Assembly (NCBI GenBank): GCA_035940855.1
Contig: DASZEM010000025.1
Coordinates: 8,067 to 72,066, forward strand
Reading direction: 5' to 3'
Source of the DNA: Thermoanaerobaculia bacterium
GTDB taxonomy: Bacteria > Acidobacteriota > Thermoanaerobaculia > Multivoradales > UBA5704
DNA: 64,000 nucleotides
Under the pieces are notes generated by a model. The model ran no database searches. It saw only the letters and a program-made list of their open reading frames with translations, and was not told where the DNA came from. Below are positions 9,000 to 51,230 of this stretch, one piece after another. A program made the translations under genes and the position numbers. Numbering within the stretch: position 1 is the first letter of the stretch; the number at the start of each line of letters is the position of its first letter.

Positions 9000-9775
9000 T
9001 CCAGACCATCGACCACGGTCCCGTCCGCGAGCTGCGGCTCGACCGGCCGCCGGCCAACGCCCTGTCCCCCGAGCTGATCGCCGCCCTGCGCGAGGCGGTC
9101 GAGGGGGCACCGGGCGCCGGAGCCCGCGCGCTGGTCCTCTCCGGTTCGCCCGGCCGGTTCTCGGGCGGCTTGGACGTGCCTCTCCTGATCCAGCTCGACG
9201 CGGCGTCGATCGCGGCCACCTGGAGGGATTTCTACCGTCTGATGAGCGCTCTCGCGGGCTCGCCCATCCCCGTGGCGGCGGCCATCACGGGCCACAGCCC
9301 GGCCGGCGGCGCCGTGCTGGGAATCTTCTGCGATACCCGGATCATGGCTCAGTCACCGGAAGGGGACTTCAGGATCGGCTTCAACGAGGTGCAGGTGGGA
9401 ATCCCCCTGCCGCCCATCATCTTCCGCGCCTTCCGCCGGCTGGTGGGGCCGCGCCAGGCCGAACGGCTCTCCGTCAGCGGCCAACTGATCTCCGGAACTG
9501 AGGCCTACGGGATCGGCCTCGTGGACGAGCTCGTGCCCGCCGGCCGGGTGGTGGAGCGGGCCGTCGAGTGGTGCAACGGCCTGCTCGCCCTGCCGCCCCA
9601 GGCCCTGGCCATCACCCGCCAGACCGCCCGGGCCGATCTCATCGCTTTGTTCAACGAGACCGAGGGCGAGCTGGCGGGGCTGGTGGACATGTGGTTCAGT
9701 GACGAGACACAGACGGTGCTGAGGTCGGTCGTGGAGCGGCTGACGAAGAAGCCCTCGCCTCCCCGATCGGCTTGA
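8996..9775 (+). CDS. Enoyl-CoA hydratase/isomerase family protein
   Basis: RLDRPPANAL, FSGGLD, GHSPAGGAVL, IGFNEVQVG, GLVDE motifs; ATG overlaps pnkp stop (ATGA). Confidence 0.9.
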   Translation: MIQTIDHGPVRELRLDRPPANALSPELIAALREAVEGAPGAGARALVLSGSPGRFSGGLDVPLLIQLDAASIAATWRDFYRLMSALAGSPIPVAAAITGHSPAGGAVLGIFCDTRIMAQSPEGDFRIGFNEVQVGIPLPPIIFRAFRRLVGPRQAERLSVSGQLISGTEAYGIGLVDELVPAGRVVERAVEWCNGLLALPPQALAITRQTARADLIALFNETEGELAGLVDMWFSDETQTVLRSVVERLTKKPSPPRSA

Positions 9776-10586
9776 AGAACGCCTTCCTCACCCCGGCGAG
9801 GACGAGGAGCGTCAGGCCGAAGGTGGCCACGATCGCGGCGCCCGTCGGCAGGTCCATGAGGAACGACAGGGCGACGCCGCCGGCCGAGACCACGGCGCCC
9901 ATCGTCCAGCCGATGGCGAGGCGCGCCCACAGGCGCTCGGCGAAGAGCATCGCCGTCACCGAGGGCACGATCAGGAAGCAGAAGACCAGGAGCACGCCCG
10001 CGATGGCGACCGAGGAGGTCACCACGAAGCCGAACGAGACGTAGAACAGGAAGTCCCAGAAGCGGACGTTCAGGCCCTGCCGCTCGGCCTCCTGCTCGTC
10101 CATCGAAATGAGCAGGAAGCGCTTCCGGAAGATGTAGTGGAAGAGGCCGACGGCCGCATAAAGGACGGCCGTCTTCGCCAGCTCCGGCCAGGTCACCGAG
10201 AGGATGTTGCCGACCAGCATCTCCTTCAGGTGCTCGGTCTCCTGGGTGGCCTTCGACATCACCAGGATGGCGACCGCCGCCGACACCGCGTAGACGATGC
10301 CGATCACCGCCTCCTGGGGGATGCGGGTCTGCCGGTGCACGCGCGACAGGGCGAAGATCGCGGCCCCCAGGAAGGTGAACCCCAGCGAGTAGAGGTAGGC
10401 CGTCGTCGAGTGGAGATCGTTGCCGAGGAGATAGGCCACGGTCGCCCCCAGGGCGGCGATCTGGGCCAGCGAGAGGTCGACGAAGATCACCCCGCGCTCG
10501 ACCACGTGGACGCCCAGATAGGCGTGGATGCCGGTCAGGATCAGGCTCGCCACGAAGGCGGGCAGGAGCAGTTGGAAGATGGTCAT
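9696..10586 (-). CDS. Metal (Zn/Mn) ABC transporter permease
   Basis: Multi-TM protein; LGVHVVERGVIFVDLSLAQIAALG, ISMD...AE..G, AGVLLVF..LIVP (ZnuB-like). Confidence 0.9.
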   Translation of the reverse strand: MTIFQLLLPAFVASLILTGIHAYLGVHVVERGVIFVDLSLAQIAALGATVAYLLGNDLHSTTAYLYSLGFTFLGAAIFALSRVHRQTRIPQEAVIGIVYAVSAAVAILVMSKATQETEHLKEMLVGNILSVTWPELAKTAVLYAAVGLFHYIFRKRFLLISMDEQEAERQGLNVRFWDFLFYVSFGFVVTSSVAIAGVLLVFCFLIVPSVTAMLFAERLWARLAIGWTMGAVVSAGGVALSFLMDLPTGAAIVATFGLTLLVLAGVRKAFFKPIGEARASSSAAPRPTSAPSVSRH

Positions 10587-10595
10587 TTCTTTCCC

Positions 10596-11516
10596 CTATT
10601 TCTTTCCTTTCATGGCCGCCACGAAGGCGTCGATGTCCGCGTCGAACAGCGAGAAGTAGTCCTTGATCGCCGGCGTGCCGCCGACCGACGGGTAGAAGAC
10701 CACCACGGCGGCCCCCGTCTTGCCCGCGATGTAGTCCGGCGTCTTGCGGTCGAAGTAGGGCTCGACCAGGATCACCGGCACCTTCTGCGACTGGATCAGG
10801 TTGATGGTCTCCAGCGTGTGCGTGGGCGACGGCGGGATGCCGGGCTTGGGCTCGACGTGGCCCACGATGTTGAGCTTGAACGCCTTGGCGAAGTTCGGCC
10901 AGGAGTCGTGGAAGGTGACGATCTTCGTGCCCGCGTAGGGAGCCATCCTCGCCCCCCACTCCGCCTGCTTCTGGGTCAGGCGCTGCTCGAAGGCGGCGAG
11001 GTTCTTCTGATAGGTGGCGGCGCCGGCCGCGTCGAGCTGCGACAGGCGGCCGGCGATGGCCCGCGCGACCACCCGGCCGTTCCCGGGATCGGTCCAGTAG
11101 TGCGGGTTGCCGTAGGGGTGGACGTCGCCCATGGCGCGGGTGACCTGCCCCGCGGGCCGCTGGAGGATGTTGCAGCCCACGGAAGCGTCCAGGTAGCCGG
11201 GGTTGCCGGGGTGGATCTTGCTGTTCCGGCTCTGGTCGATCATCGGCGGCAGATAGCCGATCTCGAGCTCCAGGCCGGCCACGATCAGCAGGTCGGCGCG
11301 CGAGAGCTGGAGCACGAAGGACGGCTTGGCGTCCACGAAGTGCGGGTCCTGGTAGCCCTTGGCGAGGGCGAAGGTCTCGACCCGGTCGCCGCCGATCGCC
11401 TGGGCGATCGAGGACAGGTCCTGGAGCGAGGTGACGACGCGGAGCTTGGCCTCGGCCGCGGAGCTGAAGCTCGCGAGCGCGGCGAAAGCCAGGACGACGG
11501 AAAAGATGCGTTTCAT
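10596..11516 (-). CDS. Metal ABC transporter substrate-binding protein
   Basis: Signal peptide; QDPHFV, GNPHYW, TFHDSW, VEPKPGIPPSPTH (ZnuA/TroA cluster). Confidence 0.92.
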   Translation of the reverse strand: MKRIFSVVLAFAALASFSSAAEAKLRVVTSLQDLSSIAQAIGGDRVETFALAKGYQDPHFVDAKPSFVLQLSRADLLIVAGLELEIGYLPPMIDQSRNSKIHPGNPGYLDASVGCNILQRPAGQVTRAMGDVHPYGNPHYWTDPGNGRVVARAIAGRLSQLDAAGAATYQKNLAAFEQRLTQKQAEWGARMAPYAGTKIVTFHDSWPNFAKAFKLNIVGHVEPKPGIPPSPTHTLETINLIQSQKVPVILVEPYFDRKTPDYIAGKTGAAVVVFYPSVGGTPAIKDYFSLFDADIDAFVAAMKGKK

Positions 11517-14165: not shown

Positions 14166-15395
14166 TCACCGCCGCACGATTCTGCCGCGGAAGCCCACGG
14201 GCATGGGCACCGCGGCGAGCATCATGCGCACAGACTCCGGCTCCTCCACCTCCAGGCGATAGCGGGTCAGCATCAGGTGGCAGAGCAGGATCAGTTGCGT
14301 GGTGCCCAGGCTCGCGCCAATGCATGCCTTGGGCGCCCAGCCGAACGGGACGTAGGAGGCACGGGGGCAGGGGCCGTGTTCCTCGTCGAGCAGCCAGCGG
14401 TCCGGGTCGAAGACGTCGGGATCCTTCCAGTGCCGCGGGTCGTGATGGATAAGGTACGTGCTGAGGAGATACCGCTGGCCAGGCTCGAGGTTTACGTTGT
14501 CGAGGCGGATGCCCGTGCGCACCGGCCGGGTCATGAACACCGGCGGGCTCCAGATGCGCAGGACCTCCTTCACGAAGCGGTGCGTCTCCGGGGCCGACTG
14601 CGTGGGCGAGCCGTACAACCGCTCCAGGGGCAGCGGCGCAAGCTCGGCTGTCAGGCGCGCGGCCCAGTCGCTCCGACGGGTCAGCTCGTACAGCAGGCTC
14701 GCGGCGGCGGCACCCGGGGGCCCGGCGATGGCGGTCAGCACCGTGGTGACCGCGTCCACCGCGCGGTCCACGCCGAGCTCCGGCAGCAGGTCGACGATCG
14801 GATCGGTCAGGTCGAGCCGGCGTGGCCTGTGGCCCCTGGCGCGGTCGCGAAGCTCGCGGCGCACCGCGTTTCCCGCGCGGATCTGGATCCAGATCGAGCG
14901 GATCTCCTTCCAAATCGACTCGCCGTCGGACTGGGTGCGCACCAGCCGCGCCAGCTTGAAGTCCTGATCTCGCAGGATGTGCGCCCGGTCGGCCGGCGGC
15001 AGCCCGTCCACGACCGTGGGCAGGAGAGCGCGCGTGCACACCTGCTGCGTCGCCCATGTCATGTCGAGAAGCCGGCCGAGTCGCTCTTCAATCAGGCCGC
15101 TCATGCGTTCGGCGAGCTGCCCCACCCCCTCGGCGTCGGACAGGCGCCGGAGCTGCGTGATCAGCGCCGAGCGCACCTGCTTCCAGGAGACCGGAGGGCC
15201 CTTGCGTCCCCGCACCACGTCAGCGAGCTTGTCGGGCAGGGTCAGGTCGCCGAAGTTGATTGCGTTGACCTTCTGAGCGATCTCGGGATCGAACACGGCC
15301 AGCTCGCCTTCGGGGGTCCAGAAGACGCCGCCTTCCGCGAGGCTCCGGGCGCGCATCTCGGTAACGAACTCAACTTCCTCGGGTGCTCTGTCCAT
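14166..15395 (-). CDS. Cytochrome P450 (P450-1, downstream of precursor)
   Basis: ExxR (KEVLR), FDPDRW, heme motif FGWAPKACIG; GGAGG RBS before MDRAPEE. Confidence 0.92.
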   Translation of the reverse strand: MDRAPEEVEFVTEMRARSLAEGGVFWTPEGELAVFDPEIAQKVNAINFGDLTLPDKLADVVRGRKGPPVSWKQVRSALITQLRRLSDAEGVGQLAERMSGLIEERLGRLLDMTWATQQVCTRALLPTVVDGLPPADRAHILRDQDFKLARLVRTQSDGESIWKEIRSIWIQIRAGNAVRRELRDRARGHRPRRLDLTDPIVDLLPELGVDRAVDAVTTVLTAIAGPPGAAAASLLYELTRRSDWAARLTAELAPLPLERLYGSPTQSAPETHRFVKEVLRIWSPPVFMTRPVRTGIRLDNVNLEPGQRYLLSTYLIHHDPRHWKDPDVFDPDRWLLDEEHGPCPRASYVPFGWAPKACIGASLGTTQLILLCHLMLTRYRLEVEEPESVRMMLAAVPMPVGFRGRIVRR

Positions 15396-15413: not shown

Positions 15414-15444
15414 GGCCGGAGGGCAAAACCTCCGCCCTCCGGCC
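15414..15444 (-). other. Stem-loop immediately 3' of the precursor-peptide stop
   Basis: Perfect 11-bp stem GGCCGGAGGGC / GCCCTCCGGCC with 9-nt loop, no U tract. Confidence 0.7.
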
Positions 15445-15454
15445 TTCGAACGAC

Positions 15455-15544
15455 TCAAATGTGGTGATAGAAGTACCACCAATATTCACGATCCCTACGC
15501 CGGACGGCCAGGGCCGTTAGGACGGCGCGCGCGATCTTGGCCAT
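15455..15544 (-). CDS. Putative RiPP precursor peptide MAKIARAVLTALAVRRRDREYWWYFYHHI (29 aa), below the ORF-track cutoff
   Basis: ATG 15544, TGA 15455-15457; AAGGAGGT Shine-Dalgarno with 7-nt spacer; 8 consecutive aromatic residues in the C-terminal core; sits between two P450 genes. Confidence 0.85.
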   Translation of the reverse strand: MAKIARAVLTALAVRRRDREYWWYFYHHI

Positions 15545-15568
15545 GTGACTCACCTCCTTTCTCCTGGT

Positions 15569-16711
15569 TCAAGGCCGATGCGGGTGCAGGCCCAGCGTGA
15601 ACCGGGGTGGCGCGAGCGCCGGGCCCATGCTCGGCCGGGTGTCCCGGGGCGCGACGGTCAGCTCGTGGCCGTCGAGTAGGATCTTGAGCACGTCCTCGAC
15701 GAGCTGGATGGAGAGCGAGCCCGCGACGCACGTATGCGGGCCCCATCCAAACGGAATGAACGCCTGCAGGTCGGGAGAGGCGGCCCAGCGCTCGGGCCGG
15801 AAGCTCTCGGGATCGTCCCAGTAGCGCGGGTGCCGGTGCACCAGGTAGGGGCAGACGACCACGACATCCTGCGGTGTGACCTGGACGCCCGCCACCTCGT
15901 GGGCTCGGGTGGGCTGACGCCCCAGCATCCAGGCCACCGGCCAGAGCCGCAGCGCCTCCAGCACGATCCACGCCGGCGGCGCATCAATGCGCGGATTTGT
16001 GCCCAGCAGCCAGACCGACCAGCCGAGCACGAAGCCGACCGAGCCGCCGATCGAGAAGACGAACGACAGGAACACCTCGGCCAGTTCCGAGGACAGCGCG
16101 TCCGGCCCCGCTCCCTGGACCACCACGTCGAGCAGGTCGGCTGGCTCGCCGCCGCTGCGCGCTCTCCGCTCCTCCACTGCCCGCACGAGCGCACGCTCCA
16201 CCTGAAACCGGAACACCGCCCGCCGCAGACGGGAGTAACGCTGGCGCGCCCCGGCCAGCACCGCGCGCTCCAGAACCGCGTCGATCGTCCTGCGCAGCGG
16301 AGCCGGGCTGTCCGGCGAGAGCAGGGCATCCGCGAGATGCTGGTAGAGGAGTCGGTTGCCGGCGTCGGGCCACTCGCTCGACGGCGCGAGCCGCCGCACG
16401 GACTCCTCCAACTCGCCCGCATGGGCGCGCAGATAAGAGCGCAGCAGCATTCGCGCTGAGCGGCCGATCTGGATCTGCGCGGAGCGCGGACCGAACACAC
16501 CGCGGCGCGTGTGGAAGAAGTCGGCGTGCTCCTCGTACAGCCCGTCGCCGTTGATCAGCACGGCACGAGCCGCCGCCGGCTCCGCAACACAGAGCTGCCG
16601 GCCCGGCAACCAGAAGGCGTCCCCCGCGGCCGGGAACGCCCGATCGAGATACCCAGCCGGATCGCGGTGGAACGCGGCATCCAACTCTCGTTTGAACATC
16701 ACGAAACCCAT
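15569..16711 (-). CDS. Cytochrome P450 (P450-2, upstream of precursor)
   Basis: ExxR (LEALR), FRPERW, heme motif FGWGPHTCVA; start uncertain (16750, 16711 or 16699). Confidence 0.9.
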   Translation of the reverse strand: MGFVMFKRELDAAFHRDPAGYLDRAFPAAGDAFWLPGRQLCVAEPAAARAVLINGDGLYEEHADFFHTRRGVFGPRSAQIQIGRSARMLLRSYLRAHAGELEESVRRLAPSSEWPDAGNRLLYQHLADALLSPDSPAPLRRTIDAVLERAVLAGARQRYSRLRRAVFRFQVERALVRAVEERRARSGGEPADLLDVVVQGAGPDALSSELAEVFLSFVFSIGGSVGFVLGWSVWLLGTNPRIDAPPAWIVLEALRLWPVAWMLGRQPTRAHEVAGVQVTPQDVVVVCPYLVHRHPRYWDDPESFRPERWAASPDLQAFIPFGWGPHTCVAGSLSIQLVEDVLKILLDGHELTVAPRDTRPSMGPALAPPRFTLGLHPHRP

Positions 16712-16788: not shown

Positions 16789-17538
16789 ATGACTGACAAG
16801 AGCTATCGGTTGTTCGGAGAGCTGGCGCACCGCTATGATCTGCACACGCCGCCCGGCCACTACCTGCCCAAGTACGAGTTCGTGCTCGACGAGCTACGCC
16901 GATACGGCGCGGGCGCCCAGGTGCTGGACCTGGGCTGCGGCACCGGGGCCCTGCTGGAGAGTCTTCGCTGCGCGGGCCTCGCGGGTCGCGGGATCGATAT
17001 CTCGCCAGAGATGGTCGCCGTCGCCGAGCAGCGTCTCGGCCCCGGCGTGGTCCGGGTCGGGCGCCTGCAGGACCTCGAAGAGCGGGAGACGTGCGACGCC
17101 ATCGTCTCGATGGCCTTTGCATTCAACTACTGCGCTGACGTTGCCGAAGCACGGCAGGCCCTGGCGGGATTCCACCGCGCCTTGCGCCCCGGTGGGCTCG
17201 TCATACTCCAGGTAGCGCACGCGCCGAACTGCCCCGACCACCTCTTCGAAGAGTGGGAGCCGGGACCCGGCGGCGAGAGGGATGTCCAATTTCTCTGCCG
17301 CTTTTTGCCCGTGCCGGGAGAGGTGCCCGCCGTCCGGGCGCAGTATGTCTACTCCTGCCGGAGCCTCAAGGAGCTCCTCGCCGAAGAGCACGTCCTCAAC
17401 GTGGCGGACGTGTACCTGATCGCCGGGCTCCTGCGTGACACAGGGTTCTGCGAGGTCCGGATCTATGACAACTCGCGGCGAGAGCCCCTGTTGAACGCTC
17501 TCGCGCCGTACGTCCTCGGAGTTCGTCGGATCTTGTAA
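16789..17538 (+). CDS. Class I SAM-dependent methyltransferase
   Basis: Motif I VLDLGCGTG, GIDISPEMV, CDAIVS..AFNY, ALRPGGLVIL; divergent from P450-2. Confidence 0.9.
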   Translation: MTDKSYRLFGELAHRYDLHTPPGHYLPKYEFVLDELRRYGAGAQVLDLGCGTGALLESLRCAGLAGRGIDISPEMVAVAEQRLGPGVVRVGRLQDLEERETCDAIVSMAFAFNYCADVAEARQALAGFHRALRPGGLVILQVAHAPNCPDHLFEEWEPGPGGERDVQFLCRFLPVPGEVPAVRAQYVYSCRSLKELLAEEHVLNVADVYLIAGLLRDTGFCEVRIYDNSRREPLLNALAPYVLGVRRIL

Positions 17539-18435
17539 TACAGAAACCAGTCGCCCCCGGGGAAGGGGGCGGTTCCACCGACAGATGTTTCCAGCAGGGG
17601 AGAGGCGCCAAGGTGAGCGTCTCGGGCTCGGCGAAGCGGTCGGGGCTTGTCTCTATAGGTACCTATCCCGTCGGGAGACACCCACCTGATTGAGAGGACC
17701 AGGATTTACTTCCTGGCTGAAAGGGGCGGGGGAGGCGCCGCCGAGGGCGCATTCCCCGCCCTCGACGGTGCTACTTCTGGCTTCTGTCGACAGGACTGGG
17801 TTGACTACACTCTCTCCGGACAATCGACTGGTTCATGGTCCCGTCTCGCAAGACCCGCAGGTGATAGTGACCGAAGTCGAGCCGTCCGTCCGGGCGGGCG
17901 GAACCGTTCGCCAGGATTCCGAACTCTCGCAGGTTGTCCATCAGCTGTTCGGCGGTGACGCAATAGGCTTAACAGGTGGGTCACGGGTGAACCCTGGAGG
18001 GGATCTGGCACGAGCGCAAGCAGAGACCCGCGCCCGCAACCGGGGCCAGAAGGTGGATCCCGGCCAGTTCGAGACGCCCGAGACCGTGACGTTCGATCCT
18101 CTCCCGTGCTGGCAGCATCTCGCCGGAGGAGCAACGGTAGTGTGTCGCCCCGCTTGGTGGAGGAGATCGAAGCCGAAGCCGCCGGGCAGGTGGAGCCGTC
18201 CACCTATAGATAGGTGGGCCGGAAGGCGTCGGCCCGAACTGCCTCCCGGGTCATCGTGTCGGTTGTCAAAGAACCGGTCTCCGGCCTTCCAAAGGCCACC
18301 GGGCGGGTCCATTCGCTGGATTCCCTGGTGCCTTGTCTCATTTCGGCCCGCCGTACCCGACTGCCGGGGCTCCAGAGGTTGTGTTTGGCCCCCGAAATCC
18401 TCTTTTCGATCTCCGCCGTGCTGATTTCCGTCCTC

Positions 18436-18620
18436 GAATCCAGTGGATTCGGGCGGAGAAGCATTCATCTCGGATCCAGAAGCCAGTGGATTGTCCCCAA
18501 AAGCATTGTGATGGAACCCGGAATCCAGTGGATTCTGGTTTCCAGATGAATGCTTCTGGACGGAATCCACTGGATTTTGAGCCCGAGATCAATGCTTCCC
18601 GGGCCGAAACCAGTGGATTC
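18436..18620. repeat. Array of five 15-bp quasi-palindromes GAATCCASTGGATTC at 42-43 bp period
   Basis: Copies start at 18436, 18479, 18521, 18563, 18606; linkers carry AAGCATT or its reverse complement AATGCTT. Confidence 0.8.
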
Positions 18621-18770
18621 TGAGTCTGAATCGGATGCTTCCCCGAGGAGAGTCATGGGCCCGATGGATGAGAGAACTGTACCAGAATTGACAGAAGCGC
18701 GCAAGCCGTGGACAGTGATGGCGCTTCGGACGGAAGTGGAGGAGGGTCCTTTCCCGGCTCTTGACCGCTG

Positions 18771-18843: not shown

Positions 18844-18920
18844 CGGGGCGTAGCTCAGCTTGGTAGAGCGCACGGTTCGGGACCGTGAGGCCGGAGGTTC
18901 AAATCCTCTCGCCCCGACCA
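18844..18920 (+). tRNA. tRNA-Pro (anticodon CGG)
   Basis: CGGGGCG/CGCCCCG acceptor stem, D loop AGCTTGGTAGA, anticodon arm CACGG-TTCGGGA-CCGTG, GGTTCAAATCC T arm, encoded CCA. Confidence 0.97.
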
Positions 18921-19002: not shown

Positions 19003-20556
19003 ATGACCCTACGGAAAGCGTTCGGGGTGGGGATCGCCTTGATGGCGGCGCTGCTGACAACAGGGGCGGGGGCGGCGCCGGAGACGGGTGTGCGCGACGC
19101 GGTGCGGACCTACCGCGCGGCCCATGAGAAGGAGATCGTGCGGGAGCTCTCGGACCTGCTCGCCCTGCCCAACGTGGCGACCCGCATCCCGGACATCGAG
19201 CGCAACGCGGATCATCTGACGGGGATGCTGGAGCGCCGGGGCTTCAAGGTGCAGCGGCTGTCGGCGGGGGAGGGCACGCCGCCCTCGCTCTATGGCGAGC
19301 TGCGCGTCCCGGGGGCGAAGCGGACGCTGATGTTCTACGCCCACTACGACGGCCAGCCGGTCGACCAGAAGGGCTGGGTCTCCGATCCGTTCAAGCCCGT
19401 GGTGCGCAGCGGGCCTCTCGGCGAGGGGGTCAAGGAGATCGATCTGGGAAGCGTCCAGGGGCCGCTCGATCCCGAGTGGCGGATCTTCGCCCGCTCGGCG
19501 AGCGACGACAAGTCGCCCATCGTGGCCATCCTGACGGCGCTCGACGCCCTGCGCGCCTCGGGACGGCAGCCGTCGGTCAACGTGAAGCTGTTCCTGGAGG
19601 GAGAAGAGGAGCAGGGCTCGCCCCATCTGACGGAGATCCTCCGCAAATACGCCTCGCTGCTCACGGCCGACGCCTGGATCCTCTGCGACGGGCCGGTGCA
19701 CCCGACGCGGCGGATGCAAGTGTTCTACGGCGCCCGCGGGGTGGCGGGGCTGGAGCTGACGGTCTACGGTCCCGTGCGGCCCCTCCACAGCGGCCACTAC
19801 GGCAACTGGGCGCCCAATCCGGCCGTGACGCTGGCCCACCTCGTGGCGAGCCTGCGGGACGAGGAGGGGCGCATCCTGATCCCCGGCTTCTATGACGACG
19901 TGCGCCCGCTCAACGAGGCGGAGAAGAAGGCCGTCGCGGCCATGCCTCCCGTCGAGGAAGGGCTCCGGGACGAGCTGGGCCTGGGCCGCACGGAAGGAAA
20001 CGGCGCGCGCCTGCAGGACCGTCTGATGGACCCCGCGCTCAACGTGCGCGGCCTGCGCTCGGCCGAGGTGGGCGACGCGGCGGCGAACGCCATCCCCACG
20101 GAGGCCCAGGTGTCGATCGATTTCCGCCTGGTGCCGGACCAGACGCCGCGGAAGGTCCAGGAGCGGGTCGAGGCGTTCCTGCGTTCCAAGGGGTGGTATT
20201 TAGTGAACGAAGCTCCGGACCGGGCGGCGCGGCGGGCCCATCCCAGGATCGCCCGCTTGGAGTGGTCGCTCGACTATCCCGCGGCCCGCACGGACATGAG
20301 CCTGCCGGCTTCACGGGCGGTCGCCGCGGTGGTGGAGAAGGCCGTGGGCGGGCCGATCGTGATCGTCCCCATGCTGGGGGGCAGCGTGCCGATGTACCTG
20401 TTTACGGAGAGCCTCAAGGCGCCCATCATCGGCGTGCCCATGGTGAACCACGACAACAACCAGCACGGGATCAACGAGAACCTGCGGCTCAAGAACCTGT
20501 GGGACGGGATCGAGGTGTACGGGGTGCTGATGGGGGAGATGGGGGCGGGCTGGTAG
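19003..20556 (+). CDS. M20/M25/M40 family metallopeptidase, exported
   Basis: FYAHYDGQP, ARSASDDKS, EGEEEQGS, HSGHYGN, NQHGINENL; signal peptide. Confidence 0.92.
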   Translation: MTLRKAFGVGIALMAALLTTGAGAAPETGVRDAVRTYRAAHEKEIVRELSDLLALPNVATRIPDIERNADHLTGMLERRGFKVQRLSAGEGTPPSLYGELRVPGAKRTLMFYAHYDGQPVDQKGWVSDPFKPVVRSGPLGEGVKEIDLGSVQGPLDPEWRIFARSASDDKSPIVAILTALDALRASGRQPSVNVKLFLEGEEEQGSPHLTEILRKYASLLTADAWILCDGPVHPTRRMQVFYGARGVAGLELTVYGPVRPLHSGHYGNWAPNPAVTLAHLVASLRDEEGRILIPGFYDDVRPLNEAEKKAVAAMPPVEEGLRDELGLGRTEGNGARLQDRLMDPALNVRGLRSAEVGDAAANAIPTEAQVSIDFRLVPDQTPRKVQERVEAFLRSKGWYLVNEAPDRAARRAHPRIARLEWSLDYPAARTDMSLPASRAVAAVVEKAVGGPIVIVPMLGGSVPMYLFTESLKAPIIGVPMVNHDNNQHGINENLRLKNLWDGIEVYGVLMGEMGAGW

Positions 20557-50561: not shown

Positions 50562-51230
50562 CTAGGATCCGCCACCACCGCCACTCCCGCTCCCGCTGTC
50601 GTTGCCACCGAAGTTGGTGTTGAAGAAGTTGTTGAACGCGTTCTGAACCTGTCCCACTCTCGACTGCTGAGTCGTACCGTCATCACTCGTGTAGAAGCTG
50701 AAGGTACGAGCCACGCTCACCGTACCCGAGCCTTGGACAGGCGAGAAGACGGTGATCGTAGCCATGGCGGTCTCCCCCGACTGAGCGTCGCCGTTGTTGG
50801 AGTTCCGCCGGAAAGCCCCGGCCTGCCGAAGGCCCTGGATGAACTCATTCACCTGCGAGGTCGAGAGCTGAACGGTGTCGACGCAGTTGCCGGTGCAGCC
50901 ACTGGTGCCGCTGCCGTTGGCATTCGACCGGTTCCAGGTCGCGAGGCCGTTGTCATAGATGACCAGAGTGCTCACCGGCGAGTCGGCGTTCAAACTGGCC
51001 CCGCCGGAGCCCGATCCACCGGACCCGTTGGCCAGGCCCCAGACGGTATAGATCAGGACAGGCACGGGATTGTTCAACCGGAAGGAAGCGCTCCCCCCAC
51101 GGCCGTTGACCGTGCCACCGCCGCTTCCACCCGTGCCACCGCCCCCGCTCTGCGCCAGGGCCAGGGTCGGGAGACAGATCAGAAGTGCCAGAACCAGAAT
51201 TCCCCACTTCATCGAACGGCTGCTTTTCAT
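50562..51230 (-). CDS. Secreted Gly/Ser/Asn-rich hypothetical protein
   Basis: AAGGAGGT RBS, signal peptide ending ALA-Q, Gly-rich termini, CTGNC pair. Confidence 0.75.
   Translation of the reverse strand: MKSSRSMKWGILVLALLICLPTLALAQSGGGGTGGSGGGTVNGRGGSASFRLNNPVPVLIYTVWGLANGSGGSGSGGASLNADSPVSTLVIYDNGLATWNRSNANGSGTSGCTGNCVDTVQLSTSQVNEFIQGLRQAGAFRRNSNNGDAQSGETAMATITVFSPVQGSGTVSVARTFSFYTSDDGTTQQSRVGQVQNAFNNFFNTNFGGNDSGSGSGGGGGS

What the first reader, a model, noticed from the sequence alone, without database searches (positions are those of the whole stretch)
15455..15544. Uncalled precursor MAKIARAVLTALAVRRRDR-EYWWYFYHHI
It has the strongest Shine-Dalgarno in the region (AAGGAGGT, 7-nt spacer). 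A hydrophobic helical leader and basic RRRDR hinge precede the core Y21-W22-W23-Y24-F25-Y26-H27-H28 (seen). The core offers overlapping i,i+2 pairs (Y21/W23, W22/Y24, Y24/Y26, Y26/H28); the last is the YxH motif crosslinked in biarylitides (established motif; usage here is inference). The AT-rich aromatic codons are very unlikely by chance in high-GC DNA (inference).
Basis: partly seen in the sequence, partly recalled or inferred. Interest (0 to 1): 0.9.

Follow-up and report, generated by a model that had tools for sequence, protein, structure and literature searches.

The report
Hyalucidin-family RiPP precursor between two P450s
The 29-codon gene is real and conserved and encodes the precursor of a small aromatic peptide that the two flanking cytochrome P450s cross-link, but it belongs to a family (hyalucidin A / gpertide) already described in 2025, so it is a new member rather than a new kind.

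Summary
Window 15455-15544 (minus strand) encodes MAKIARAVLTALAVRRRDREYWWYFYHHI, with AAGGAGGT 7 nt upstream, and lies between two P450 genes. A run of eight aromatic/His residues is far beyond chance (expected 4e-5; 0 of 200 shuffles).

Homologous peptide genes of 28-29 codons lie beside the orthologous P450 pair in Acidobacteriota, Myxococcota, Chloroflexota and Streptomyces. Longer relatives occur in Gammaproteobacteria. All keep a Shine-Dalgarno site. pN/pS is 0.24-0.30 among close orthologs, and a GC-rich hairpin follows all but the A1-type copies, which were not folded.

The family is already known. The peptide matches NCBIfam NF053510.1, "hyalucidin A family RiPP precursor", over its full length (57 bits, cut-off 35). 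The upstream P450 is 38% identical to GpeC (PDB 9ULW). GpeC joins Trp-C7 to Tyr-C3 in the WxxY motif of cores fitting W/Y-x-WxxY-H/N-H/N-I, and YWWYFYHHI fits that pattern.

The expected cross-link is therefore W23-Y26 (i,i+3). The second P450 is an ortholog of the unnamed partner P450 in the gpe cluster and in a Streptomyces prunicolor cluster. It probably performs the second step of the "tandem P450 catalysis".

The ORF is also not uncalled: the exact peptide is already in public gene-call collections.

Verdict: real, a new member of a known kind, modest interest.

The parts
15455..15544 (-). Precursor peptide gene (A2-type copy): 29 codons plus TGA. Leader is roughly residues 1-20 (MAKIARAVLTALAVRRRDRE) and the C-terminal core is YWWYFYHHI.
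   Evidence: Translation. NF053510.1 'hyalucidin A family RiPP precursor' scores 57.1 bits against a cut-off of 35, matching positions 1-29 of 29. Orthologs were found in 12 or more loci. pN/pS is 0.24-0.30.
15552..15559 (-). Shine-Dalgarno site AAGGAGGT, 7 nt before the ATG.
   Evidence: AAAGGAGGTGA or AAGGAG is conserved at the same distance upstream of every family member.
15414..15444 (-). GC-rich stem-loop with a 14-bp stem, between the precursor stop and the P450-2 start. It is probably a partial terminator or an mRNA-stabilising hairpin.
   Evidence: The 65-nt intergenic stretch that contains the hairpin folds at -36.5 kcal/mol, z = -3.8, and 0 of 200 shuffles fold as well. A stem-loop is predicted after each of eight other non-A1 copies folded, with different primary sequences; five of the eight fold clearly better than shuffles, the other three do not.
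15569..16711 (-). P450-1, a GpeC-like peptide biaryl macrocyclase of 380 aa. The start is ATG 16711; an alternative ATG is at 16699.
   Evidence: Pfam p450. PDB 9ULW (GpeC) matches at E 5.9e-78 over residues 11-375, with 38% identity and 55% positives. The haem-ligand motif FGWGPHTCVAG and EALR (ExxR) are present.
14166..15395 (-). P450-2, the second tandem P450, 409 aa. It is the ortholog of the unnamed 406-aa P450 directly upstream of GpeC and of the second P450 in Streptomyces prunicolor.
   Evidence: Pfam p450. tblastn gives 51% identity to L018, 39% to L019 and 36% to L016 over the full length. It is only 24% identical to GpeC, over the C-terminus. The haem motif FGWAPKACIG is present. 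It is paired with P450-1 in every locus.
16789..17538 (+). Divergently transcribed class I SAM-dependent methyltransferase of 249 aa. It is an accessory gene, present only in a subset of clusters.
   Evidence: Pfam Methyltransf_25/11/12. 78% identical orthologs are present in L001 and L005, and a 67-79% identical, fragmented match in L010. It is absent from L002, L003, L006, L011, L012 and L014.
17526..17552 (-). Decayed relic of a second precursor copy (A1-type). It reads DWFLYYKI followed by CGA where relatives have a stop codon. No recognisable leader, start codon or Shine-Dalgarno site remains.
   Evidence: DNA alignment with the intact A1 genes of L001-L003. The core and the sequence 3' of the stop align, whereas the leader region carries insertions. 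tblastn with A1 finds no intact copy in the window.

Best explanation
The 29-codon ORF is the translated precursor of a P450-cross-linked RiPP (a 'cyptide') of the hyalucidin A / GpeA-like family. The N-terminal 20 or so residues (MAKIARAVLTALAVRRRDRE) form the leader and the C-terminal nonapeptide YWWYFYHHI is the core.

P450-1, the GpeC homolog encoded directly upstream, most likely forms a biaryl C-C bond between W23 (indole C7) and Y26 (phenol C3). This is the WxxY tetrapeptide ring demonstrated for GpeC and for rubrin.

P450-2, encoded directly downstream, is conserved as the obligatory partner across five phyla. It most likely carries out the second oxidative step on the same peptide, the 'tandem P450 catalysis' that gives hyalucidin A its benzofuranoindoline. 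That step probably involves the invariant aromatic residue at position 21 and/or the aromatic residue at position 24.

The divergent SAM methyltransferase, found in only some clusters, would add an accessory methyl group. Leader removal would fall to a protease encoded elsewhere, as in cittilin biosynthesis.

The strong Shine-Dalgarno site and the stem-loop after the stop codon would give the precursor a higher yield than the enzymes.

What is shown here: the ORF, its conservation and purifying selection, HMM membership, and the homology of both P450s. What is inferred: translation in this organism, which residues are joined, the order of the two P450s, and the role of the methyltransferase.
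For: - Family membership. NF053510.1 'hyalucidin A family RiPP precursor' matches over its full length at 57.1 bits against a cut-off of 35. A2-type relatives score 46-65 bits.
- Independent searches converge. A P450-2-based genome scan, a peptide-based metagenome scan and P450-1 homolog look-ups all recover the same arrangement of peptide plus P450 pair. Every peptide hit lies next to a P450-1 homolog.
- Gene-level conservation. Of the 16 peptide genes tabulated, 15 have exactly 29 codons and one has 28. All have a Shine-Dalgarno site 6-9 nt upstream and a stop directly after the core.
- Purifying selection. Among A2 orthologs pS is 0.55-0.88 and pN 0.15-0.24, so pN/pS is 0.24-0.30.
- P450-1 and GpeC. 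P450-1 matches PDB 9ULW at E 6e-78 with 38% identity over the full length.
- Published chemistry. The GpeC preprint (10.1101/2024.10.06.616194) shows a Trp-C7/Tyr-C3 bond in WxxY of the cores WRWVMYHHM and WFWMLYHHM. Its supplement describes a clade-1 precursor pattern W/Y-X-WXXY-H/N-H/N-I (Fig. S2) and cyclisation 'within the WYLY motif' of a YR-W-Y-L-Y-HHI-type core (near Fig. S31).
- The gpe locus was recovered. It contains a P450-2 ortholog directly upstream of GpeC. A Streptomyces prunicolor locus has the same order as the window, with the peptide ...YEYFWYLYHHI between the two P450s.
- Both P450s act on one peptide type. Clusters with only an A1 copy (L002, L003) or only an A2 copy (window, L011, L012, L014) still keep both P450s.
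- Hairpin. A stem-loop is predicted after each of the nine non-A1 copies folded, six of them clearly more stable than shuffled sequence.
Against: - There is no expression or product evidence for this organism.
- The hyalucidin A paper could not be read. The residue assignment of the benzofuranoindoline and the division of labour between the two P450s are therefore my inference from the title alone.
- P450-1 is only 38% identical to GpeC, and GpeC itself gives different linkages with altered substrates.
- Position 24 is aromatic in this clade but aliphatic in GpeA, so regiochemistry may differ.
- The second precursor copy (A1) has decayed in this genome, which could indicate a cluster in decline.
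- No protease, exporter or redox partner is conserved with the cassette.
Confidence: 0.8

Rival explanations
1. One reading: the core is cross-linked through i,i+2 pairs (Y21/W23, W22/Y24, Y24/Y26, Y26/H28), with the last pair being a biarylitide-type Y-x-H link.
For: The window's own sequence does contain these pairs. YxW, YxY and YxH links are made by other cyptide P450s (PMC11659900 section 3.1; PMC13185096). Y21-x-W23 is conserved as Ar-x-W, so an i,i+2 link at that site, made by P450-2, remains possible.
Against: H28 is Q in all A1 copies and in L007, S in L014 and N in L019. H27 is N in L006 and L010 and R in L014. W22 is I, R, G, M or F elsewhere. The characterised homolog links i,i+3 (WxxY). 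Biarylitide precursors are leaderless pentapeptides.
Confidence: 0.07
2. The cluster is decaying in this genome. The intact A2 gene and the P450s are no longer expressed or no longer yield a product, as the degraded A1 copy suggests.
For: An A1 relic lies at 17526-17552, having lost its start, leader and stop. No conserved exporter or protease accompanies the cassette.
Against: A2, both P450s and the methyltransferase are intact full-length ORFs with haem-binding motifs, a consensus Shine-Dalgarno site and the conserved hairpin. Several other genomes also carry only an inter-P450 copy (L011, L012, L014), so a single precursor copy is a normal state for the family.
Confidence: 0.06
3. This is not a product precursor. 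It is either a chance ORF or a cis-regulatory leader peptide/attenuator that controls P450-2 expression.
For: It is very short, sits in an intergenic gap and is followed by a strong hairpin, which superficially resembles an attenuator.
Against: The amino-acid sequence is conserved across five phyla while synonymous sites are near saturation. It matches a curated RiPP-precursor HMM over its full length. Homologous cores are experimentally cyclised by the homologous P450 (10.1101/2024.10.06.616194). Copies also occur upstream of P450-1 and as tandem duplicates.
Confidence: 0.02

Closest known systems
Hyalucidin A family RiPP precursors (NCBIfam NF053510.1). Reference: Yin et al., Angew. Chem. 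Int. Ed. [quoted passage not shown]
   Same: A 29-residue precursor that matches the 29-position equivalog model end to end and scores above the cut-off. Two adjacent P450 genes, in agreement with the 'tandem P450' of the title. The core is C-terminal and ends at the stop codon.
   Different: The core sequence YWWYFYHHI differs from all relatives seen here at positions 22 and 25. The host is probably an acidobacterium rather than a myxobacterium or actinomycete. This clade has an extra divergent methyltransferase. The product is unknown. I could not read the paper, so the reference precursor sequence and cross-link map were not compared.
GpeA1/GpeA2 with GpeC (gpertide); PDB 9ULW; bioRxiv 10.1101/2024.10.06.616194.
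   Same: P450-1 is a full-length homolog of GpeC (38% identity, E 1e-87). The nine-residue core fits the published clade-1 pattern W/Y-X-WXXY-H/N-H/N-I. The leaders are recognisably homologous (MKKMKNAVMRTLGLR versus MKKIATAMMRALSIR). The gpe locus also carries an ortholog of P450-2.
   Different: The gene order is reversed in gpe: precursors, then the P450-2-like gene, then GpeC, then an ABC transporter. The GpeA peptides are longer and fall below the NF053510.1 cut-off (19 and 10 bits). Position 4 of the core is aliphatic in GpeA but Y or W here. The preprint characterises only GpeC and never mentions the neighbouring P450.
Rubrin (PruA/PruB; Nam et al. 2023, as summarised in PMC11659900 and PMC12352619).
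   Same: A WxxY motif with a Trp-C7 to Tyr-C3 biaryl bond. A Streptomyces prunicolor P450 (P0161) is 48% identical to P450-1 and sits in the same arrangement of P450, 28-aa peptide and P450.
   Different: Reviews list pru as a one-P450, one-link system. Whether P0161 is PruB itself was not verified. The peptide in that locus (YEYFWYLYHHI) differs from the WHHY core quoted for rubrin.
Biarylitides (BytA/BytO, P450Blt; MxYxH pentapeptides).
   Different: Biarylitide precursors are leaderless 5-mers with an i,i+2 Tyr-His link. Here there is a 20-residue leader, and the histidines are not conserved.
Cittilin (CitA 27 aa, CitB P450, CitC methyltransferase; bioRxiv 10.1101/2020.05.25.114512).
   Same: A minimal cluster made of a short precursor with a C-terminal aromatic core, a P450 and a methyltransferase, with no protease in the cluster.
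   Different: Cittilin uses a single P450 that makes both links on a YIYY core. The leader is unrelated, and the methyltransferase there is part of the operon rather than divergently transcribed.
Two-P450 atropopeptide-type clusters tsu/oli (PMC11659900, section 3.3).
   Same: One precursor acted on by two P450s that add successive cross-links.
   Different: These have a WYxWY core of the tryptorubin type and are actinobacterial. Homology to those P450s was not tested here.

Membership tests
Hyalucidin A family RiPP precursor (NCBIfam NF053510.1, equivalog) | The whole-protein HMM score is at or above the curated cut-off of 35 bits, with a full-length match. | tested here: met
   57.1 bits, E 1.5e-15, residues 1-29 on profile positions 1-29 of 29.
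Hyalucidin A family RiPP precursor (NCBIfam NF053510.1, equivalog) | The gene lies next to two P450 genes ('tandem P450 catalysis'). | tested here: met
   The ORF lies between P450-1 (15569-16711) and P450-2 (14166-15395). The same pair is present in all related loci.
Hyalucidin A family RiPP precursor (NCBIfam NF053510.1, equivalog) | The mature product carries a benzofuranoindoline cross-link. | not testable with these tools
   This needs expression plus MS and NMR. The paper's text was not available.
GpeA-like precursors / GpeC-type WxxY macrocyclases (10.1101/2024.10.06.616194) | The C-terminal core fits W/Y-X-W-X-X-Y-H/N-H/N-I(M). | tested here: met
   Y21-W22-W23-Y24-F25-Y26-H27-H28-I29 followed by a stop. 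The pattern comes from supplement Fig. S2.
GpeA-like precursors / GpeC-type WxxY macrocyclases (10.1101/2024.10.06.616194) | The adjacent P450 is homologous to GpeC over its full length. | tested here: met
   PDB 9ULW at E 5.9e-78 over residues 11-375, with 38% identity and 55% positives.
GpeA-like precursors / GpeC-type WxxY macrocyclases (10.1101/2024.10.06.616194) | A Trp-C7 to Tyr-C3 biaryl bond forms in WxxY. | not testable with these tools
   Inferred from homology only.
Biarylitides | The precursor is a leaderless pentapeptide (MxYxH, an 18-bp gene). | tested here: not met
   The precursor has 29 residues and a conserved leader of about 20 residues.
Biarylitides | A conserved i,i+2 Tyr/His cross-linking pair. 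| tested here: not met
   H28 is replaced by Q, S or N and H27 by N or R in family members.
Biarylitides | A BytO/P450Blt-type P450. | tested here: inconclusive
   P450Blt does not appear among the 60 best PDB sequence matches of P450-1, nor among the 25 PDB matches of P450-2 at E up to 1e-10. No direct alignment was made.
Cittilins | A YIYY-type core and a single CitB P450. | tested here: not met
   The core is YWWYFYHHI and there are two P450s. Homology to CitB was not tested.

The most novel reading that the evidence does not exclude
The acidobacterial clade represented by this window may make a new hyalucidin/gpertide congener rather than hyalucidin A itself. The reasons are the hexa-aromatic core (Y-W-W-Y-F-Y), a clade-specific aromatic residue at core position 4, and an added methyltransferase. 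The outcome could be a different or additional cross-link, for example two overlapping i,i+3 rings (Y21-Y24 and W23-Y26), together with methylation. The clusters also show ongoing gain, duplication and decay of precursor copies (A1 versus A2) around a fixed P450 pair. This could serve as a natural experiment in how the substrate scope of the two P450s evolves.
Probability: 0.35. Interest if true: 0.4.

Novelty: new member of a known kind. Interest (0 to 1): 0.3.

Why it matters

Its value is incremental. It extends the hyalucidin/gpertide family of P450-cross-linked peptides into Acidobacteriota (Thermoanaerobaculia-like MAGs). It supplies a new, unusually aromatic core. It shows that a compact cassette of precursor plus two P450s moves between unrelated genomic contexts in at least five phyla.

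The most useful lead is the second P450. It is conserved everywhere as the partner of the GpeC-type enzyme, including in the published gpe locus and in a Streptomyces prunicolor locus. Yet the open literature I could read does not discuss it. Enzymes of this clade are of interest as biocatalysts for biaryl peptide macrocyclisation.

Tried and rejected
- Literature search for the core strings. A full-text search for YGWWGY, IWYLYH, WWYFYHH and similar strings found nothing. The link to the literature came instead from the PDB hit 9ULW and from an NCBI protein name.
- Y-x-H / i,i+2 hypothesis. Rejected on conservation.
- A second aromatic cluster. The stretch 'FWFWHF' near 51205 (-) lies close to another AAGGAGGT. 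It is an out-of-frame artefact inside the signal-peptide region of a 222-aa secreted protein gene (50562-51230); the Shine-Dalgarno site belongs to that gene.
- Absence of the ORF in L002 and L003. It is explained by a paralogous copy upstream of P450-1.
- Conserved accessory genes. I looked for a conserved protease, exporter or redox partner around the cassette. Only the methyltransferase, P450-1, the peptide and P450-2 are shared between the window and relatives. The M20 peptidase at 19003-20556 and the Znu-like transporter genes are not part of the conserved unit.
- Hyalucidin A paper. It is not held in the library.
- P450 family assignment. Pfam and NCBIfam give no specific family for either P450 beyond generic P450 and a weak ApyO similarity.
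- Steps not run. Structure prediction and fold search were not run, because a solved structure of a homolog answered the question.

Full report
**1. The observation**

On the minus strand, window 15544->15455 reads ATG, 29 sense codons and TGA. It translates to MAKIARAVLTALAVRRRDREYWWYFYHHI.

AAGGAGGT lies at 15552-15559, seven nucleotides before the ATG. This octamer occurs four times in the window against 0.96 expected.

The ORF begins 25 nt after the stop of one P450 gene and ends 59 nt before the ATG of a second.

YWWYFYHH is the longest run of Y/W/F/H in any of the six frames. The i.i.d. expectation for a run of 8 or more is 3.7e-5, and none of 200 first-order shuffles exceeded 6. The nine core codons are 37% GC in a 70% GC window.

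**2. Neighbourhood**

- P450-1 (15569-16711, -) and P450-2 (14166-15395, -) both carry the ExxR and FxxGxxxCxG motifs.
- The two are only about 25-30% identical to each other.
- A class I SAM methyltransferase (16789-17538, +) is transcribed divergently from P450-1.
- A 14-bp GC stem-loop (15414-15444) follows the peptide stop; the 65-nt intergenic stretch containing it folds at -36.5 kcal/mol (z = -3.8).

**3. Relatives**

Three independent routes were used.

- A genome scan with P450-2 gave three Acidobacteriota MAGs, L001-L003.
- A metagenome scan seeded only with the peptide alignment gave L005-L010.
- A search with P450-1 gave at least 511 homologs. These include Thermoanaerobaculia MAGs, the cultured myxobacterium Pyxidicoccus parkwayensis, Hyalangium and Myxococcus MAGs, and a Herpetosiphonaceae MAG. 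Their loci were fetched.

Every locus that is long enough has the P450-1/P450-2 pair and at least one peptide gene of 28-29 codons.

| Source | Peptide |
|---|---|
| Window | MAKIARAVLTALAVRRRDREYWWYFYHHI |
| L001 | ...AIRRKDRTYIWYLYHHI |
| L006 (two tandem copies) | ...YRWYYYNHI and ...YRWYVYNHI |
| Pyxidicoccus | MAKIFRSVMAALAIRRKDPAYRWYVYHHI |
| Herpetosiphonaceae | VAKIAHAVMRALSIRSNDRWYMWYVYHHI |
| Hyalangium MAG | VKKIMRAVMAALSIRRKDNVYGWWGYRSM |

A paralogous 'A1' type, MKKIATAMMRALSIRRKDRVYGWWGYHQI, lies upstream of P450-1 in L001-L003 and L008-L010.

All copies have AAGGAG(G) 6-9 nt upstream. A GC-rich stem-loop of differing sequence is predicted directly after each of the nine non-A1 copies folded; six of them fold clearly better than shuffled sequence. 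The A1 copies were not folded.

Among A2 orthologs, synonymous sites are near saturation (pS 0.55-0.88) while pN is 0.15-0.24, so pN/pS is 0.24-0.30. This is the signature of a translated gene under purifying selection.

L002 and L003 lack the copy between the P450s, but they keep A1. The window keeps A2, and at the A1 position it has only a decayed relic (17526-17552).

Only the methyltransferase, P450-1, the peptide and P450-2 are shared between the window and the other loci. The unit is therefore a compact cassette that sits in unrelated genomic contexts.

**4. Which residues matter**

- Across the 28-29-residue peptides, Y21, W23 and Y26 are invariant and position 24 is always aromatic (Y or W). 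In the longer gammaproteobacterial relatives the residue equivalent to Y21 is W and the one equivalent to position 24 is V or M.
- Position 27 is H, N or R. Position 28 is H, Q, S or N. Position 22 is W, I, R, G, M or F.
- The histidines are therefore not conserved, so a Y26-x-H28 link cannot define the family.

**5. Link to known systems**

P450-1 matches PDB 9ULW at E 5.9e-78 over its full length, with 38% identity.

9ULW is GpeC (bioRxiv 10.1101/2024.10.06.616194). GpeC forms a Trp-C7 to Tyr-C3 biaryl bond in the WxxY motif of GpeA1 and GpeA2. The nine-residue cores WRWVMYHHM and WFWMLYHHM are sufficient substrates.

The supplement states that clade-1 precursors follow W/Y-X-WXXY-H/N-H/N-I. 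It also reports cyclisation within the 'WYLY' motif of a YRW(Y)LYHHI substrate. YWWYFYHHI fits this pattern exactly, with W23 and Y26 as the ring-forming pair.

I recovered the gpe locus. It encodes, in order:
- GpeA1 and GpeA2, whose lengths of 35 and 27 residues from the published starts confirm the locus;
- a 406-aa P450 that is 36% identical to the window's P450-2;
- GpeC;
- an ABC transporter.

A Pseudoalteromonas locus has the same layout. A Streptomyces prunicolor locus has the window's order, with MRALYLKAKSVLNIRGQYEYFWYLYHHI between the two P450s (48% and 51% identical to P450-1 and P450-2).

An exact-sequence look-up showed that NCBI names this Streptomyces peptide 'hyalucidin A family RiPP precursor'.

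| Peptide | Score against NF053510.1 (equivalog, 29 positions, cut-off 35 bits) |
|---|---|
| Window peptide | 57.1, full length |
| A2-type relatives | 46-65 |
| A1 | 35.3 |
| GpeA2 | 19.2 |
| GpeA1 | 10.2 |

The reference is Yin et al., Angew. Chem. [quoted passage not shown] Its text is not held.

**6. Mechanism**

Shown here:
- the gene, its conservation and its family membership;
- the homology of P450-1 to a characterised WxxY macrocyclase;
- the obligatory pairing with a second P450.

Inferred:
- P450-1 joins W23-C7 to Y26-C3.
- P450-2 carries out the second oxidative cross-link on the same peptide, probably involving Y21 and/or Y24 with W23, to give the benzofuranoindoline named in the hyalucidin title.
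- The methyltransferase, present only in the window, L001, L005 and L010, adds an accessory methyl group, by analogy with CitC in cittilin biosynthesis (10.1101/2020.05.25.114512).
- A protease encoded elsewhere removes the leader.
- The strong Shine-Dalgarno site and the hairpin raise the yield of precursor relative to the enzymes.

Both P450s are retained in clusters that have only an A1 copy or only an A2 copy. This argues that the two enzymes act in tandem on one peptide rather than each having its own substrate.

**7.

Correct: this is a P450-modified RiPP precursor, and its conservation next to orthologous P450s is confirmed.

Incorrect or unsupported:
- the i,i+2 / YxH biarylitide chemistry;
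- 'uncalled', since the exact peptide is already in public gene-call collections;
- the implied novelty.

**8. Novelty and score**

The family has been described (gpertide and hyalucidin A, 2025) and has a curated HMM. This peptide is therefore a new member of a known kind.

What is modestly new:
- the acidobacterial distribution;
- the hexa-aromatic core;
- the accessory methyltransferase;
- the turnover of precursor copies;
- the fact that the GpeB-like second P450 is a universal partner, although the open literature I could read does not discuss it.

Interest is 0.3.

**Limits**

- The key paper could not be read.
- No product chemistry can be tested in silico.

Noticed in passing
window 17526-17552 (-), within the mechanical ORF 17463-17681 (-): A decayed second precursor copy (A1-type). 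It reads DWFLYYKI with CGA in place of the stop. The leader is unrecognisable and carries insertions relative to L001-L003. It overlaps the 3' end of the methyltransferase gene on the other strand.
   Followed up: yes
window 18844-18920 (+) and 18519-18624: A tRNA-Pro (CGG) lies about 1.3 kb beyond the cassette. Between them is a low-GC stretch (0.52) containing a 42-bp repeat in 2.5 copies. Together with the lack of synteny, this suggests that the cassette sits in an island next to a tRNA gene.
   Followed up: partly
L006 5851-5937 and 6001-6087: A tandem duplication of the precursor gene between the two P450s, in which each copy keeps its own Shine-Dalgarno site and hairpin. The cores differ at one position (YRWYYYNHI and YRWYVYNHI), and the first copy starts with GTG.
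   Followed up: partly
L016 4103-4285 and 4535-4705 (the gpe locus): Both GpeA ORFs have an in-frame upstream start, MKKMKNAV(L/M)R..., that aligns with the MKKIATAMMR leader of the A1 peptides. The published 35-mer and 27-mer may therefore be N-terminally truncated versions of 38- and 35-residue precursors.
   Followed up: no
L016 4778-5998, L019 2770-4011, L018 5350-6573: Each published or related cluster carries a second P450 orthologous to the window's P450-2. The GpeC preprint text never mentions this gene, and reviews list pru as a single-P450 system.
   Followed up: partly
L001 15552-15665: An isolated fragment resembling the 3' end of P450-2 (89% over 57 nt; 60% over 38 aa) lies about 6 kb downstream of the cluster. 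It may be a remnant of a rearrangement or of a second cassette.
   Followed up: no
window 50562-51230 (-): A 222-aa secreted Gly/Ser-rich protein with a consensus AAGGAGGT Shine-Dalgarno site. Its signal-peptide region produces a spurious out-of-frame 'FWFWHF' aromatic run.
   Followed up: yes
window 9696-11516 (-) and 19003-20556 (+): ZnuA-like and ABC-3 zinc-uptake genes and an M20 peptidase flank the cassette. They are not conserved with it in other genomes.
   Followed up: partly
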